Below are positions 12,001-64,000 of a DNA stretch of 64,000 nt, piece after piece (the stretch's first letter is position 1; each line of letters opens with the position of its first letter). Position numbers: made by a program. Location: the NCBI GenBank assembly GCA_951406725.2, contig OX597832.1, positions 29,822,001 through 29,886,000 on the forward strand, in the 5' to 3' direction. Origin of the DNA: Octopus vulgaris (lineage: Eukaryota).

Positions 12001-15000
12001 TCTCCAACTAGCTAGCCATCAGTCTGTCTATCTATCTATCTATCTATCTATCTATCTATCTATCTATCTATCTATCTATCTATCTATCTATCTATCTATC
12101 TACCTACCTAATTATCTATCTCTCACCATATATATATTATTAACTATTCCAGACCTATTCGATATGCTCAACCTATCTTAAGTATTAATCTTATTGATTC
12201 AAATAGTTCGAAATGAATAGATTCGTTATGTGTATGAAGAATTCACATTGGAATCATTCTCTTCGAGACTGAATTAAAAACGCCGCCACATCTGGAGACT
12301 GCTTCACATCGGAGAATATCTCGTTTCACTGAATCAGCGAGTGATGTGTTAGCGGATGTTAAACCAGGGATTTGACACTCGATTTTGACTCTCAACAAGA
12401 AAAACAATGAACCGCCTATTAAGATAAATAATCGCTCTCATCCTACCAATCTTCCTTCTTTATCTATCTGTCTAAACACAATCACACACACACACACACA
12501 CACACACACACACACACACACACACGTGTATGTATGTATGTATGTATGTATGTATGTATGTATCCATCTATCTTTAACTATCCATCTTTTTGTCTATCTG
12601 CGTGTGTCACTCCCTCTAGCTCTCTCTCTCTCTCTCTCTTGTTTTCTTGTCCATCTGCTTCTCTCTCTCTCTAATTGTATATCTATCCTTCCATCTCAAT
12701 TCTTCTTCTTCTTCTTCTTCTTCTTCTTCTTCTTCTTCCACTTCTTCTTCTTCTTCTTCTTCTTCCACTTCTTCTTCTTCTTCCACTTCTTCTTCTTTTT
12801 CTTCTTCTTCTTCTTCTTCTTCTTCTTCCACTTCTTCTTCTTCCACTTCTTCTTCTTCCACTTCTTCTTCTTCTTCTTGCACTTCTTCTTCTTCTTCTTC
12901 CACTTCTTCTTCTTCTTCCACTTCTTCTTCTTCTTCTTCCACTTCTTCTTCTTCTTCTTCCACTTCTTCTTCTTCTTCCACTTCTTCTTCTTCTTCCACT
13001 TCTTCTTCTTCTTCTTCTTCTTCTTCTTCTTCTTCTTCTTCTTCTTCTTCCTCATCTTCCTCCTCCTCCTCCCCCTTCTCCCTCCTCCTCCTCCTCATCA
13101 CTGTTTATTTACACAGACATCGTCTATACACAAAAAATAGGGTGTAATACTGTCAACCAATTTAATTTATCTGCAGCAGATGTTTGTCTTTTAAAAAGAC
13201 ATTCTAAGCATTTGCTGCCTGAGACAATAAACGTAGACTAAATGTGAAATAAAACAGTCTCGCGATACCCGACTGTAAATCACACCGACACCCTTAAAAC
13301 CTTTTCCTTCGACGTCTGACGAATATCATCGTAATCCACCTCCATTACTCAGAAATAATTTATGGTGTCTGTTGATTTTAAAGCAAAGCAGTCCCAGAAA
13401 TATTTCGCAAACACCCAAACAGCTGTGATATTAATGTTTATTTTAAGGCGGTAGTTTGGAAGAATCGGTTGGGCATCGTAGCTGTGGATGGTAGAATTGG
13501 TAGAGCATCAAGCAAGACATATTGCGGTATTTATTGGATTGCGGCGAGTTGGCAGAACCGTTAGCACGCCGGGCGAAATGCTTCGCAGTATTTCGTCCGC
13601 CGCTGCGTCCTGAGTTCAAAGTCCGCCGAGGTCGACTTTGCCTTTCATCCTTTCGGGGTCGATAAAACAAGTACCTGTTGAACAGTGGGGTCGAAGTAAT
13701 CGACTTAATCCGTTTGTCTGTCCTTGTTCGTCCCCTCTGTGCTTAGCCCCTTGTGGGTAGTAAAGAAATAGGTATTTATTGGATTGCGTCACTTTGAGAC
13801 ATTCTACGTTCAGTTCCTTATTTCTTTATTGTCCACAAGGGGCTACTCTAGAGGGACCACTTTCTGAGGAGAAAGGAGTGGGTAGAATGATTGGTGTGAA
13901 GCCAAGAGTTGGACAAAGTATGATTTGTGAGCGAGGAATCGATGAAGGAGCTAGGAGCGCATGAGTGGGTGTAACAAGAGACCAAACAGCTCTGCAGATC
14001 AGAAACCGGTATAATAGCGGTAGAAAAGACACAGGGAGGAGACACAGCATGTCTGTACACCAGAGGCTGGAGTGTATTAGTGAATGTTTTCGTATCAATC
14101 TGTCGGCTGACCTTTTGATGGCTGTAATCTGAAATGTATGCGTGTATCACCGATTCTTTTCTGAATGGGGGGGGGACAGTAATTTATTGAGAGTATCACC
14201 TGAGCTTTGTAAAACCTTTTGAATAATGGAAATTAGTTTAACGATTTTCGCCTTTAAGGTGAATCGTCTGGTGTTGAGTGTAAGTGTAACTGTTAATGTG
14301 AGCATGAGTGTGAGTGTGATGCAAAGCTATTCATCCACGCAATGGTAAATCAAATCCACCATTATCATGGACTGCATTTTTTTCTTACTTTTGCCTTTAT
14401 CTCCATATTTATATTTTCAATACAATGTTTCAACCAATATTTTGAAGAAAAATTTCGAGAACATTCGGCACCAATCTAAACATGACGATCTAACCTCATT
14501 CAGCAGTATCAAGACATATATGAATGGTGATTCCTTACAACGCTGTACCCACTGTACCCAACCACCCCGAATAAAACACAGTTAAAAATCTTCAAATTCA
14601 CCGAAAATTCTTGGCCTCCTTAATTTGATGATTCTTCAAATGGCGACATATCTGCACCATAACCAAAAGCTGTAACCTAAAGTTTGGTTTCCTCTTTGAG
14701 TACAGAAATGATTTCAGTGATTCCGAACAGTCACAAATTCTCTACGAATTAATCCCTAACTCAATAATGTTGTTTATATATCTGGAGCAAAACATCTGCT
14801 ACGCACACAAGATTCCCCCCACCCAAATCACACACCATACATTTAGACCTCCTTCCTCCTCTCTTTCTCTTTCTCCTCCATCTGTCCATCTTCCCCCTCC
14901 TCTCTCTCTCTCTCTCTCTCTCTCTCTCTCTCTCCCAAAATTTTATCCACTCCTGAACCTCTTAATGAATATACTTAAATCGATACACAGGAAACCTTTT

Positions 15001-63000: not shown

Positions 63001-64000
63001 CACTTGCAGCACACCCACCTCCACTATTGACTTGGTCCCCTAGGTAATGGGAGCTATCAACTACTTCTAGTTTTTCTCCCTGGAACATGGTGGAAGTTGT
63101 TCTCTGCACATTTTCAGTGTTTATTTCTCCTGAGCATCTGCCACATACTAAAACTATATTCCGAGTTAGCCTTACTTTGATATCGCTGCACCTCTTATGT
63201 GTCCATAGCTTACACTGAGTACATCTCATGGAGTTTCTACCTATGCCATTTTTACAGATCAAGCAGGGTCATCTACATGAAGGGATTTGTGATTTCTCAG
63301 CTTTCCCACTTATAAGGACTTTGGTTTTAGCTACTTCTGGTAGTGATTCAGTCCCTTAGAAATATTCTTCACTGCTATAAAGCAATATGTCACTACTTAC
63401 TGACCATTCTCTTTACTTGAATGTTACCAATGTACCAACGACTATTCACAGGATTCCTGAAATTTCTATAAACAAGTTGGAAAAAATATATTGAATAATG
63501 TACATAGGTATTTCCGTTGAAAAGACTATTTACCATTCATCTTTTGGCATTTTCTTCCCATTTCAGGAAACATTGGATCCCTAATAGTAGTATCACAATC
63601 TGAGATAAGATATTGTATGGTGAATAACAAGCGCTATAATCTTGGAAGTCAATTCTCATTCACCGAAGGGTGTTTCAAGTACACCTGTATGTGTTACCGT
63701 AATGGATCTTGGGAATGTCCTGGATCAGACTCCCAATACATCTGTGATCGGGACACAGATTGGGCAAGCATACCAGGTATGTCACAAACATATTTCTTTT
63801 CTTACCAATTCTTAAAATAAAATATTGTCTCTTTTCTTCATAGCAATGAAATATTCATCTACAAAATATAATTAAGACTCATTTAACAGTTTACAATATT
63901 TATATTTCATATCATGTTATGTGATATTTTCTAATTTATGTAGAAATATTTGGACATTTTCAAATTCTTCATTTATACGTATTCCTTAAAAATTCTCAGC

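What the first reader, a model, noticed from the sequence alone, without database searches (positions are those of the whole stretch)
14342..63776. Hidden giant secreted protein built from >=33 one-exon six-cysteine modules
Seen: a signal-peptide exon plus 33 exons, each encoding one module C-x18-C-x4-C-x-C-x7-C-x8-C with a Y-x-L-G-x-x-F-x-F and G-S-W-[ED]-C-P signature. Cys spacing is invariant, there are no stops, all junctions are phase 1, and the spliced product is about 2,400 aa and still open at the window edge. Known: this resembles the N-terminal (FN1-like) half of VWC domains and pacifastin domains, but spacing differs (x4 between C2 and C3, x8 between C5 and C6), and the extra C-terminal cysteines of a full VWC are absent. 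Inference: possibly an undescribed lineage-specific module family forming a beads-on-a-string extracellular protein (structural/adhesive secretion, mucus component, or multi-headed inhibitor/binder). Function cannot be assigned from sequence alone.
Basis: partly seen in the sequence, partly recalled or inferred. Interest (0 to 1): 0.92.

Follow-up and report, generated by a model that had tools for sequence, protein, structure and literature searches.

The report
Giant octopus secreted protein gene
This is the front part of a real, very large octopus gene for a secreted protein built only of small disulfide-locked modules that resemble those of fibronectin; the gene is already in databases as an uncharacterised protein, relatives occur in every mollusc class sampled, and its function is untested.

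Summary
There are 33 modules with spacing C-x18-C-x4-C-x-C-x7-C-x8-C, all on the + strand. Each sits in its own exon with phase-1 borders, 2402 codons in total.

The gene is not hidden. The window is Octopus vulgaris. The database protein P0001 ("Hypothetical predicted protein", 1296 aa) uses these same exon borders. The O. sinensis protein LOC115222051 joins window exons 1-11 to a long 3' half made of eight-Cys modules.

Exons 13-33 lie in 4.49-kb tandem units that are 97.7-99.9% identical, introns included. Only 22 of the 33 exon translations are distinct.

The family is not cephalopod-specific. All 27 organism-named relatives are molluscs, and a chiton protein has the identical six-Cys spacing. 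No Pfam model matches. Predicted fold and profile comparisons place the module among fibronectin-type-I-like, VWC and pacifastin modules.

Function is inferred only. My best guess is a multivalent extracellular adhesive or scaffold protein. I rate it a new variant of a known kind, of moderate interest.

The parts
14342..14344 (+). Putative start codon at the 3' end of a first (mostly 5'UTR) exon; donor GTAAAT follows at 14345
   Evidence: P0001 and P0108 begin with M followed by the residues encoded from 15400, so the ATG must sit in an upstream exon. This is the best of 4 ATG|GT[AG] sites in 10000-15399. It was not verified by transcript data.
15400..15460 (+). Signal-peptide exon: 20 codons plus 1 base; acceptor ...tttttgtag, donor gtaagt, phase 1
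   Evidence: Identical to residues 2-21 of P0001. It has a hydrophobic core and an A-W-A small-residue site, judged by eye; no signal-peptide program was available.
18181..18354 (+). Module exon 1 (unique)
   Evidence: P0001 position 23; 98% to P0108
19280..19465 (+). Module exon 2 (unique)
   Evidence: (P0001 position 81)
26395..26607 (+). Module exon 3 (unique)
   Evidence: (position 143); matches the first module of P0004, in the same order
29807..29998 (+). Module exon 4 (unique)
   Evidence: (position 214)
30691..30894 (+). Module exon 5 (unique)
   Evidence: (position 278)
31546..31761 (+). Module exon 6 (unique)
   Evidence: (position 346)
32795..33004 (+). Module exon 7 (unique); this is the module that was folded
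   Evidence: position 418
33769..33999 (+). Module exon 8 (unique)
   Evidence: position 488
35601..35810 (+). Module exon 9 (type A, oldest copy)
   Evidence: (position 565)
37634..37858 (+). Module exon 10 (type B, oldest copy)
   Evidence: position 635
38772..38981 (+). Module exon 11 (type A)
   Evidence: position 710
39322..39546 (+). Module exon 12 (type B)
   Evidence: position 780
41131..41340 (+). Module exon 13 (A); start of tandem unit 1
   Evidence: no exact match in P0001
41681..41920 (+). Module exon 14 (B)
   Evidence: no exact match in P0001
42760..42969 (+). Module exon 15 (A')
43313..43552 (+). Module exon 16 (B')
45622..45831 (+). Module exon 17 (A); start of unit 2
46172..46411 (+). 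Module exon 18 (B)
47251..47460 (+). Module exon 19 (A')
47804..48043 (+). Module exon 20 (B')
50110..50319 (+). Module exon 21 (A); start of unit 3
50659..50898 (+). Module exon 22 (B)
51735..51944 (+). Module exon 23 (A')
52288..52527 (+). Module exon 24 (B')
54594..54803 (+). Module exon 25 (A); start of unit 4
55143..55382 (+). Module exon 26 (B)
56222..56431 (+). Module exon 27 (A')
56775..57014 (+). Module exon 28 (B')
59081..59290 (+). Module exon 29 (A); start of unit 5
   Evidence: (P0001 position 855)
59630..59869 (+). Module exon 30 (B)
   Evidence: skipped in P0001
60709..60918 (+). Module exon 31 (A')
   Evidence: position 925
61262..61501 (+). Module exon 32 (B')
   Evidence: position 995
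63567..63776 (+). Module exon 33 (A); start of unit 6. The donor GTATGT follows and the gene runs on beyond the window.
   Evidence: position 1075; P0001 continues with two more modules
41131..63566 (+). Five complete tandem units of 4484-4491 bp. Each holds four module exons (A-B-A'-B') and a co-amplified retroelement-like fragment in the 2.07-kb intron.
   Evidence: (97.7-99.9% identity; introns as alike as exons)

Best explanation
What it is (shown; about 0.9 sure). This is the 5' part of one real Octopus vulgaris gene: start codon, signal-peptide exon and 33 module exons.
- It is the orthologue of O. sinensis LOC115222051 and O. bimaculoides LOC106876685.
- It belongs to a family of very large secreted proteins found so far in four mollusc classes. 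These proteins consist of nothing but tandem copies of one small disulfide-rich module plus linkers.
- The O. vulgaris annotation appears to cut the gene into two models, P0001 and P0006 ('ring 3-like').
- The whole protein probably has about 70 or more modules and roughly 4,900 residues. This is an estimate from P0006, P0108 and the 4599-aa, 67-module relative P0004.
- Its order is signal peptide, six-Cys modules (all that this window holds), eight-Cys modules, then a terminal module that ends the protein at its last Cys. No membrane anchor is present.
- Exons 9-33 are an A/B module pair amplified by recent tandem duplication or homogenisation.

How it works (inferred; about 0.35-0.4 sure).
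- Each module is a fibronectin-type-I-like mini beta-sheet locked by three disulfides. I infer the pairs C1-C4, C2-C6 and C3-C5 from the alignment to FnI modules plus recalled VWC and pacifastin topology.
- The modules are joined by flexible linkers, some rich in Pro, Arg and Thr.
- The string is secreted into haemolymph, matrix or mucus. There it acts as a long multivalent adhesive or scaffold, binding extended peptide segments of partners by beta-strand addition, as fibronectin FnI pairs do.
- Because every exon is symmetric in phase 1, unequal crossing-over or exon skipping changes length and valency without breaking the reading frame.
For: Gene and exon model:
- 33 of 33 modules are intact and have phase-1 splice sites.
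- P0001 reproduces the borders of exons 1-12, 29 and 31-33.
- P0108 holds exons 1-11 in order at 98-100% identity. It then continues into eight-Cys modules and the same C-terminus as P0006.
- P0001 and P0006 come from contigs of the same length, 71,792,223 bases.

Expression in relatives:
- P0002 (1363 aa) and P0003 (1429 aa) were predicted on contigs of 4246 and 4850 nt.
- That is almost wholly coding, so I infer these contigs are spliced transcripts.

Secretion:
- There is a signal exon, and many relatives have N-terminal signal-like segments.
- Family proteins from cephalopods, a chiton, gastropods and bivalves end at the last Cys of a conserved terminal module.

Fold:
- The AlphaFold2 model of exon 7 has pLDDT 84-89 in the core and five strands. 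Its best PDB matches are fibronectin FnI modules (E 0.023-0.3, probability 0.95-1.0, rmsd about 2 A) and VWC domains.
- The three-module relative P0038 has modules at pLDDT 92-95, linkers below 50 and pTM 0.35. It gives 6 PDB matches at E <= 0.001, led by tandem FnI modules of fibronectin at 5.5e-06.
- The two best of those targets are themselves deposited predicted models. Crystal structures 3cal and 3gxe score 6.6e-04 and 9.7e-04.
- The PDB profile search finds only FnI modules (E 0.049 and 0.21).
- hhalign links the module to a Pacifastin_I- and Fn1_2-positive protein at 92% probability, E 6.6e-07.

Family range:
- 96 cluster representatives out of 1.84 billion score E <= 0.001.
- 27 of the 44 long relatives carry an organism name, and all 27 are molluscs.

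Functional leads:
- A 'balbiani ring protein 3' was unexpectedly abundant among Biomphalaria plasma proteins retained on schistosome-larva protein columns (PMC5433772, passages read).
- Three bivalve-type relatives end in ...DRGD[LM]G, and several carry Y-R-G-D in the hairpin loop.
Against: - There is no expression, localisation or binding data for the octopus gene.
- The Biomphalaria protein in PMC5433772 is linked to this family only by its automatic name. Its accession is in a supplement that I could not open.
- The FnI fold matches for the in-window module are weak: 0 matches at E <= 0.001, and the PDB profile E-values are not significant.
- The disulfide pairing was not read from coordinates, because none were available.
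- Octopus modules carry no RGD.
- dN/dS among array copies ranges from 0.12 to 1.76 on very few changes. Constraint on the youngest copies is therefore not shown.
- The array's true copy number could be affected by assembly. The O. sinensis model holds only two A/B pairs.
- Which ATG starts the protein was not verified.
Confidence: 0.45

Rival explanations
1. It is a load-bearing structural or cement material. The protein is secreted by a gland and assembles into fibres, threads or glue, for example egg tether or chorion cement in octopus and byssus in bivalves. The disulfide-locked modules would give stiffness and hidden length, as tandem EGF modules do in octovafibrin or Cys-rich cassettes in midge BR3/sp185.
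For: - Giant size and purely tandem modules: 8.4% Cys and 14% aromatic residues.
- Recent array expansion, as seen in silk-like and mucin-like genes.
- Relatives carry the automatic name 'balbiani ring protein 3-like'.
- A review states that BR3/sp185-like Cys-rich proteins occur in the Pinctada maxima byssus (PMC12817120, passages read).
- Octopus egg tethers are made of a 29-EGF tandem protein, so this kind of material exists in the same animal (PMC12723725 and PMC10336842, passages read).
Against: - The family is present in animals with no byssus and with very different egg coverings: chiton, limpets, land snails and octopus. No single secreted material explains its conservation.
- The byssus protein is tied to this family by name only. 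The primary paper was not in the library.
- No self-assembly motif was seen: no cystine-knot end, no odd Cys in the window modules, and no DOPA- or Gly-rich blocks.
Confidence: 0.25
2. It is a multi-headed serine-protease inhibitor. Each module would be a pacifastin-like inhibitory knot, and the string would present dozens of reactive loops, for example to control haemolymph or digestive proteases or those of pathogens.
For: - Six Cys per module, the same number as pacifastin domains (recalled).
- hhalign gives 92% probability to a protein that scores E 4.6e-15 on Pacifastin_I.
- The nearest Atlas cluster for relative P0023 is an arthropod multi-Pacifastin_I protein, at score 0.76, which is a lead only.
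Against: - None of the 10 window exons scanned matches Pacifastin_I, even at E <= 10.
- The core is 44 residues. I recall about 35 for pacifastin. All four long gaps differ from the recalled pacifastin pattern.
- The C5-C6 loop, where pacifastin carries its reactive site (recalled), starts with a near-invariant Pro and is 8 residues long here.
- The best fold matches are FnI and VWC. No inhibitor appears in the printed lists of best matches.
Confidence: 0.12
3. It is a growth-factor trap. Like chordin, kielin or crossveinless-2 with their VWC repeats, the modules would bind BMP/TGF-beta-type ligands and shape signalling gradients.
For: VWC domains (CCN3, collagen IIA) and the NEL protein are among the fold matches. 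The weakest profile hits also match VWC2L and SVWC models.
Against: - The modules lack the second VWC sub-domain.
- No Pfam VWC match.
- About 70 modules and rapid copy-number change are unlike known BMP regulators. That comparison rests on recalled knowledge.
- No VWD, CHRD or other accessory domain is present.
Confidence: 0.06
4. It is not a working gene. The array would be an assembly artefact or a decaying exon array, and the long reading frame would be an illusion of recent duplication.
For: Exons 13-33 are so recent that their open frames say little. dN/dS among them is not clearly below 1. The deposited O. vulgaris model skips 17 of the 33 exons and ends by reading into an intron.
Against: - Exons 1-12 are only 28-51% identical to exon 7, yet all keep the six Cys, F29 and W48, and all have matched splice sites.
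- No decayed copy exists in the window.
- Units differ by 0.1-2.3%, as expected of real copies.
- Relative P0004 has its own homogenised array of 13 A/B pairs.
- Orthologues are conserved from chiton to octopus.
- Relatives show transcript-like contigs.
Confidence: 0.03

Closest known systems
Fibronectin type I (FnI/FN1) modules, as in the tandem FnI pairs of vertebrate fibronectin
   Same: Small all-beta module of about 45 residues. The first Cys, the aromatic-x-x-G hairpin, the C-x-C motif and the W-x-C motif all align. FnI modules are the best predicted-fold matches for both the in-window module and a three-module relative. Both occur as tandem strings in a secreted protein.
   Different: Six or eight Cys instead of four. 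No Pfam fn1 or Fn1_2 match. The sequence E-values are not significant (0.049 and 0.21). The whole protein is built from this one module, without FnII or FnIII. FnI proper is, from recalled knowledge, a chordate domain, whereas this family is molluscan.
VWC (von Willebrand factor type C / chordin-like cysteine-rich) domain, N-terminal sub-domain
   Same: Same order of conserved features: C ... G-x-x-Y-x-x-G ... F ... C ... C-x-C ... G ... W-x-C-P. VWC structures are among the fold matches (5nb8 at E 0.17, 5nir at E 0.49; NEL at 3.0e-04).
   Different: x4 instead of x2 before C-x-C; hhalign shows this as a two-residue insertion. The C-terminal sub-domain with its four extra Cys is absent, and a short tail supplies the sixth Cys instead. 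No Pfam VWC match.
Pacifastin inhibitor domain (PF05375)
   Same: Six Cys per module, tandem arrays in a secreted protein, and a profile-profile link through a Pacifastin_I-positive protein.
   Different: Longer core and different spacing. No direct Pfam match. Inhibitory activity is unknown. Pacifastins are, from recalled knowledge, arthropod proteins.
Uncharacterised mollusc proteins of the same family (O. sinensis LOC115222051, O. bimaculoides LOC106876685, Lottia LOTGIDRAFT_236582, Biomphalaria and Physella 'balbiani ring protein 3-like', Liolophura LOC135482358)
   Same: Same module and the same architecture. The octopus entries are orthologous.
   Different: None has a described function. 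The number of modules and the share of six-Cys versus eight-Cys modules differ. This window shows a far longer A/B array than the O. sinensis model (12.5 pairs against 2).
Octovafibrin (29 tandem EGF modules, octopus egg tether) and Chironomus BR3/sp185
   Same: Analogy only. These are large secreted proteins made of many small disulfide-rich repeats, used as materials (PMC12723725 and PMC12817120, passages read).
   Different: Different modules (EGF; C-x10-C-x-C-x-C cassettes, recalled). I made no sequence comparison with either, and I do not claim homology.

Membership tests
Unnamed mollusc family of giant tandem-module secreted proteins (LOC115222051-like) | Modules match the family profile | tested here: met
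   33 of 33 window modules score E <= 2.9e-27. The same profile finds 1375 modules in 132 of the 134 fetched proteins.
Unnamed mollusc family of giant tandem-module secreted proteins (LOC115222051-like) | Same order of parts: signal peptide, six-Cys modules, eight-Cys modules, terminal 17-4-1-6-8 module that ends the protein | tested here: inconclusive
   The signal exon and the six-Cys part are in the window. They follow the same order as P0108 at 98-100% identity and as P0004. The eight-Cys part and the terminal module lie beyond the window. They are seen only in P0006 and P0108.
Fibronectin type I (Pfam fn1 / Fn1_2) | Match to the Pfam model above its cut-off | tested here: not met
   No fn1 or Fn1_2 hit at E <= 10 for the 10 of 33 exons scanned, nor for P0001-P0003 at E <= 1.
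Fibronectin type I (Pfam fn1 / Fn1_2) | Four Cys forming two disulfides (recalled definition) | tested here: not met
   Six invariant Cys per module. Four of them align with the FnI Cys.
Fibronectin type I (Pfam fn1 / Fn1_2) | FnI fold | tested here: inconclusive
   Predicted models only. For the window module the top matches are FnI, but 0 reach E <= 0.001. The three-module relative gives 6 matches at E <= 0.001, all FnI or NEL.
VWC (PF00093) | Match to the Pfam model; ten Cys including C-x2-C-x-C and a C-terminal sub-domain (recalled definition) | tested here: not met
   No VWC hit. The spacing is C-x4-C-x-C. There are only six Cys and no second sub-domain.
Pacifastin_I (PF05375) | Match to the Pfam model and the pacifastin Cys spacing (recalled) | tested here: not met
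   No hit at E <= 10. Spacing is 18-4-1-7-8.
Pacifastin_I (PF05375) | Superfamily-level relatedness | tested here: met
   hhalign of the module profile against P0095 gives 92% probability and E 6.6e-07 over 39 columns. P0095 scores E 4.6e-15 on Pacifastin_I and 1.2e-04 on Fn1_2.
Pacifastin_I (PF05375) | Serine-protease inhibition through a reactive loop | not testable with these tools
   Needs enzyme assays.
Balbiani ring protein 3 / sp185 | C-x10-C-x-C-x-C cassettes (recalled) | not tested
   The name is given to relatives P0006, P0009 and P0113 by their sources. No BR3 sequence was available to compare. The in-window modules have C-x-C, not C-x-C-x-C.

The most novel reading that the evidence does not exclude
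Molluscs have their own conserved 'fibronectin'. In this reading the protein is a giant haemolymph and matrix protein that dates to the base of the phylum. It is built entirely from FnI-like modules, arose independently of chordate fibronectin, and glues cells, matrix and foreign surfaces together in wound plugging, opsonisation or parasite binding. Its tandem A/B exon array would expand, shrink and be alternatively spliced, tuning valency between species or even between individuals.
Probability: 0.15. Interest if true: 0.75.

Novelty: new variant of a known kind. Interest (0 to 1): 0.45.

Why it matters
A gene of about 70 modules is conserved in architecture from chitons to octopuses, yet it has no Pfam model and no paper that I could find. 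That is a sizeable blind spot in mollusc biology. The named relatives come from pearl oysters, mussels, abalone and the snail host of schistosomes.

If the snail plasma protein reported to bind schistosome larval proteins belongs to this family, the module would matter for parasite-host recognition.

The module also extends the FnI/VWC/pacifastin fold class with a distinct six-Cys and eight-Cys pattern that could be defined as a new domain family.

For genome annotation, the locus shows how tandem arrays of symmetric phase-1 exons get split and collapsed. The O. vulgaris models cover 1296 and 2546 aa, while the window alone encodes about 2,400 aa.

Against that, giant tandem-module secreted proteins are a familiar kind, the gene is already in the databases, and nothing here gives a function. 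Hence the moderate score.

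Tried and rejected
- Pfam: scans of 10 window exons, P0001-P0003 and 22 further relatives gave no real family. The only hits were repeat-summed ones with 0 stretches, or sub-threshold ones.
- ESM Atlas, 2 searches: best scores were 0.78 and 0.76. 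These are leads only, to VWC2L-like and Pacifastin_I clusters.
- Rfam on the whole window: 0 matches.
- Complex prediction with an A-type exon and the following B-type exon as two separate chains returned 'no answer', score 0.00 in both runs. I draw nothing from it.
- dN/dS among array copies was 0.12-1.76, from 1-6 synonymous and 1-19 non-synonymous changes per pair. This is too few changes to interpret.
Accession numbers, and the taxa of unnamed relatives such as P0004, therefore stay unknown.
- Literature, 10 of 10 searches used:
  - No paper on this family was found.
  - Six gene or protein identifiers and LOTGIDRAFT number 236582 gave 0 papers.
  - Searches were badly framed and gave nothing useful.
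  - OctoPartenopin (PMC7460285) concerns calponin and is irrelevant.
  - The Pinctada maxima byssus paper cited by PMC12817120 was not in the library.
- The straight read-through from 14342, which gives a hydrophobic ORF with a weak GTTTCA donor, was rejected as the signal peptide. The exon at 15400-15460 matches P0001 and P0108.
- The collection genome contigs holds only bacteria and archaea, so I did not use it.
- The joined, spliced 33-exon product was not built, searched or folded. All searches used single exons, alignments of single exons, or database proteins.
- No signal-peptide program was available.

Full report

Yes. The window has no N and 31-43% G+C. The strict pattern C-x18-C-x4-C-x-C-x7-C-x8-C occurs 33 times, always on the + strand. 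It never occurs on the - strand and never in 50 dinucleotide-preserving shuffles. A looser pattern also picks up TG/CA-type microsatellites that translate to CVCV runs. Those are artefacts.

A profile made from 19 of the 33 exon translations (alignment A1) finds exactly 33 places in the six-frame translation, at E 2.9e-27 to 9.4e-35. The next best place scores E 0.47. The window therefore holds no decayed or partial copies.

Every module has a polypyrimidine-AG acceptor and a GTAAG- or GTATGT-type donor, both in phase 1. All 33 exon lengths (174-240 nt) are multiples of three and sum to 2402 codons. Introns are 339-6929 nt long.

I did not build, search or fold the joined product. Everything below was done exon by exon or with database proteins.

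**2. What organism and gene?**

One exon, used as a query, returns a 100%-identical protein: P0001, 'Hypothetical predicted protein [Octopus vulgaris]', 1296 aa, from a 71.8-Mb contig.

- P0001 contains my translations of exons 1-12 at positions that follow one another exactly. It then jumps to exon 29, then 31, 32 and 33, adds two modules from beyond the window, and ends by reading through a donor site into an intron.
- The translations of exons 13, 14, 17, 18, 22, 25, 26 and 30 have no exact match in it.
- The exon borders I derived are thus the annotated ones wherever the annotation uses an exon. The deposited model is still a collapsed and truncated version.
- P0001 starts with M followed by 20 residues that are encoded at 15400-15460. 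That exon has acceptor ...tttttgtag and donor gtaagt, in phase 1. The codon before it is a stop, so the ATG must lie in an upstream exon.
It is the best of four ATG|GT[AG] sites in the 5.4 kb upstream. This is plausible but not verified.

**3. The gene is larger than the window.**

- P0108 is the O. sinensis protein LOC115222051 isoform X2 (2679 aa). It begins with the same signal segment and holds window exons 1-11 in order at 98-100% identity.
- It then has one more B-type module, six further unique six-Cys modules, and a long run of eight-Cys modules with spacing 2-18-4-1-1-5-8. It ends with a 17-4-1-6-8 module at the very C-terminus.
- P0006 is 'ring 3-like [Octopus vulgaris]' (2546 aa), from a contig of the same length as that of P0001. 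It starts with A/B modules 82-96% identical to the window's A/B modules and has the same eight-Cys part and the same C-terminus.
- I infer that the O. vulgaris annotation splits one gene into P0001 and P0006.
- An unnamed relative, P0004 (4599 aa), has 67 modules. Its first modules match window exons 3-8 in order. It has 13 homogenised A/B pairs, 6 more six-Cys modules and about 29 eight-Cys modules, and no other kind of domain.
- My estimate for O. vulgaris is about 70 or more modules and roughly 4,900 residues. This is inference.

**4. The tandem array.**

- From exon 13 onward the locus is a 4484-4491-bp unit with four exons (A-B-A'-B'). There are five complete copies and the start of a sixth.
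- Copies are 97.7-99.9% identical, and introns are as alike as exons. Exons 9-12 are older copies.
- The 13 A copies give 8 distinct translations and the 12 B copies give 6. No variable column hits a Cys, F29 or W48.
- dN/dS among copies ranges from 0.12 to 1.76 on very few changes and cannot be interpreted.
- Within P0004 the A/B pairs are near-identical to each other. They are only 58-66% (A) and 72-82% (B) identical to the octopus window copies. Arrays are therefore expanded or homogenised separately in each lineage.
- Consequence for the finding: the '33 intact modules' are not 33 independent observations. The strong evidence for selection is that exons 1-12, at 28-51% identity to exon 7, all keep six Cys, F29 and W48 and all have matched splice sites.

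**5. Evidence for expression.**

I had no octopus RNA data. Two relatives at 46-50% identity, P0002 (1363 aa) and P0003 (1429 aa), were predicted on contigs of 4246 and 4850 nt. Those contigs are almost wholly coding. In this window the modules are separated by introns of at least 339 nt. I therefore take these contigs to be spliced transcripts (inference). I did not try to find out where they came from.

**6. What is the module?**

- No Pfam family matches the exons, the octopus proteins or the 22 further relatives scanned.
- A profile search of PDB sequences finds only fibronectin type I modules, at non-significant E-values of 0.049 and 0.21. In that alignment the first Cys, the C-x-C motif and the W-x-C motif line up with the four FnI Cys.
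- The AlphaFold2 model of exon 7 has mean pLDDT 74 (84-89 in the core) and five strands. The 10 N-terminal and 7 C-terminal residues are below 50.
- Foldseek against the PDB gives no match at E <= 0.001. The list is led by FnI modules (E 0.023-0.3, probability 0.95-1.0, rmsd about 2 A over 43-47 columns). VWC domains (CCN3, collagen IIA) and VWF D' follow.
- P0038 is a small natural relative with three eight-Cys modules. It folds with pLDDT 92-95 in modules 1 and 2, linkers below 50 and pTM 0.35, which means confident beads and an undefined string.
- P0038 gives 6 PDB matches at E <= 0.001. These are tandem FnI modules of fibronectin (best 5.5e-06; crystal structures 3cal and 3gxe at 6.6e-04 and 9.7e-04) and the VWC-bearing NEL protein. 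The two best targets are deposited predicted models.
- The weakest hits of my own profile, P0094 and P0095 (E about 1e-04), are good Pacifastin_I matches (E 5.6e-13 and 4.6e-15). They also touch VWC2L, TILa, SVWC and Fn1_2.
- hhalign of the module profile against P0095 gives 92% probability and E 6.6e-07. It shows that the x4 stretch is the usual x2 plus a two-residue insertion.

The module is a divergent member of the FnI-like, VWC-SD1 and pacifastin fold class. It meets none of the three family definitions that I could test.

The pairing C1-C4, C3-C5 and C2-C6 is my inference from the FnI alignment and from recalled VWC and pacifastin topology. I had no coordinates to check it.

**7. Range of the family.**

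- Of 1.84 billion cluster representatives, 96 match at E <= 0.001, 75 at 1e-10 and 36 at 1e-30.
- A search with the eight-Cys part of P0006 returns 44 long proteins. Of these, 27 carry an organism name and all 27 are molluscs.
  - Cephalopods: three Octopus species.
  - Bivalves: Potamilus, Mercenaria, Mactra (two proteins), three Mytilus species, Pinctada, Ylistrum, Saccostrea, Dreissena and Mizuhopecten.
  - Gastropods: Biomphalaria, Physella, two Haliotis species, Candidula, Littorina, Elysia, Batillaria, Plakobranchus, Patella and Lottia.
  - Chiton: Liolophura sinensis.
- Class membership is from my own knowledge, except for the chiton, which I checked.
- The chiton protein has the exact 18-4-1-7-8 spacing in 23 of its 32 modules, then eight-Cys modules, then the terminal 17-4-1-6-8 module.
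- That terminal module ends the protein in cephalopods, chiton, gastropods and several bivalves.
- The architecture is therefore old, and the six-Cys form is not an octopus invention.
- Whether the family exists outside molluscs is unknown.

**8. What does it do?**

Shown:
- A signal exon is present, and the orthologues have no anchor at their C-termini.
- Only modules and linkers are present.
- The 2369 counted window-encoded residues are 8.4% Cys, with F, Y and W together at 14%. There are 28 N-x-S/T sequons. K+R and D+E are nearly balanced, at 274 and 257.
- A-to-B linkers are short. B-to-A linkers are rich in Pro, Arg and Thr.

Inferred: a long, flexible, disulfide-stabilised, multivalent extracellular protein.

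I favour an adhesive or scaffold role with fibronectin-like logic, at about 0.35-0.4, for three reasons:
- The nearest structures are FnI pairs caught binding extended peptides by strand addition (3cal, 2rkz, 3ejh, 3gxe).
- A 'balbiani ring protein 3' was unexpectedly abundant among Biomphalaria plasma proteins retained on schistosome larval-protein columns (PMC5433772, passages only). Two snail members of this family carry that automatic name. The accession is in a supplement that I could not open.
- Three bivalve-type members end in ...DRGD[LM]G, and others carry Y-R-G-D in the hairpin loop.

The rivals are set out in their own section with evidence on both sides:
- A structural or cement material. 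A review says BR3/sp185-like proteins occur in pearl-oyster byssus (PMC12817120, passages). Octopus egg tethers are a 29-EGF tandem protein.
- A multi-headed protease inhibitor.
- A BMP trap.
- A non-functional array.

**9. Novelty and verdict.**

What is new is a matter of description:
- An unnamed domain family with six-Cys and eight-Cys forms.
- A giant protein whose architecture is shared by four mollusc classes and which has no literature that I could find. The identifier searches returned 0 papers. Supplements were not visible.
- A locus where annotation has split and collapsed a tandem phase-1 exon array.

I rate it a new variant of a known kind, with interest 0.45.

Noticed in passing
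window 44502-45044, 48990-49811, 53474-54295, 57961-58782, 62448-62990 (- strand): An open frame of 180-273 aa sits in the 2.07-kb intron of every tandem unit. It starts with a PHD-like zinc-finger stretch (Pfam PHD E 7.8e-05, below cut-off) and looks to me like the tail of a retroelement ORF. It was evidently inserted before the unit was amplified and was copied along with it. A second 138-aa frame on the + strand (e.g. 48547-48963) is repeated likewise and has no Pfam match.
   Followed up: partly
window 5803-6699 (- strand): A 298-aa open frame upstream of the gene carries the C-terminal part of a reverse transcriptase (RVT_1 E 1.4e-05, below cut-off). It is probably a LINE fragment.
   Followed up: partly
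window 516-790, 4762-4863, 11637-12121, 12700-13059, 20854-21318, 23807-24134, 25575-25810, 27120-27700, 30310-30481, 32358-32499, 3408-3774: Many simple repeats lie in the flank and in the introns: (AT)n, (ATCT)n, (TCTA)n, (TTC)n, a 10-bp unit repeated 46 times, (ACAT)n, (TG)n, (TGTA)n, a 27-bp unit repeated 5.3 times and a 184-bp unit repeated twice. The TG-rich ones translate to CVCV runs and mimic Cys-rich patterns.
   Followed up: no
proteins P0010 (Pinctada imbricata), P0122 (Saccostrea echinata), P0023 (unnamed source): These three family members do not end at the terminal module's last Cys. They end in a short tail ...DRGD[LM]G. Several other members carry Y-R-G-D-[ST]-x-F in the hairpin loop of repeated modules, e.g. 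six modules of P0119. This may be an integrin-type cell-attachment motif. The octopus proteins have none.
   Followed up: partly
proteins P0094, P0095, P0099 (unnamed sources): The weakest hits of the module profile are small proteins with lipoprotein-like or signal-like N-termini and three tandem modules. P0094 and P0095 match Pacifastin_I well (E 5.6e-13 and 4.6e-15). P0094 also matches VWC2L and TILa. P0099 reaches only Fn1_2 at E 0.05. They look bacterial to me, which would be odd for these families. Their origin could not be checked.
   Followed up: no
proteins P0002, P0003 and window exons 5-12: Six-Cys modules alternate between two flavours of the roughly 15-residue segment before the first Cys. 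One reads like S-x-V-V-V-x-x-G-x-x-V and the other like S-x-x-x-Y-[VI]-I-x-x-x-D. So the A/B pair looks like an old two-module super-repeat in cephalopods. The segment is not confidently folded when a module is modelled alone.
   Followed up: partly
protein P0001 (deposited O. vulgaris model), C-terminus: The deposited model ends in four residues plus a stop that come from reading through a B'-type donor site into the intron. The same read-through frame is seen after exons 16, 20, 24, 28 and 32 in the window.
   Followed up: yes
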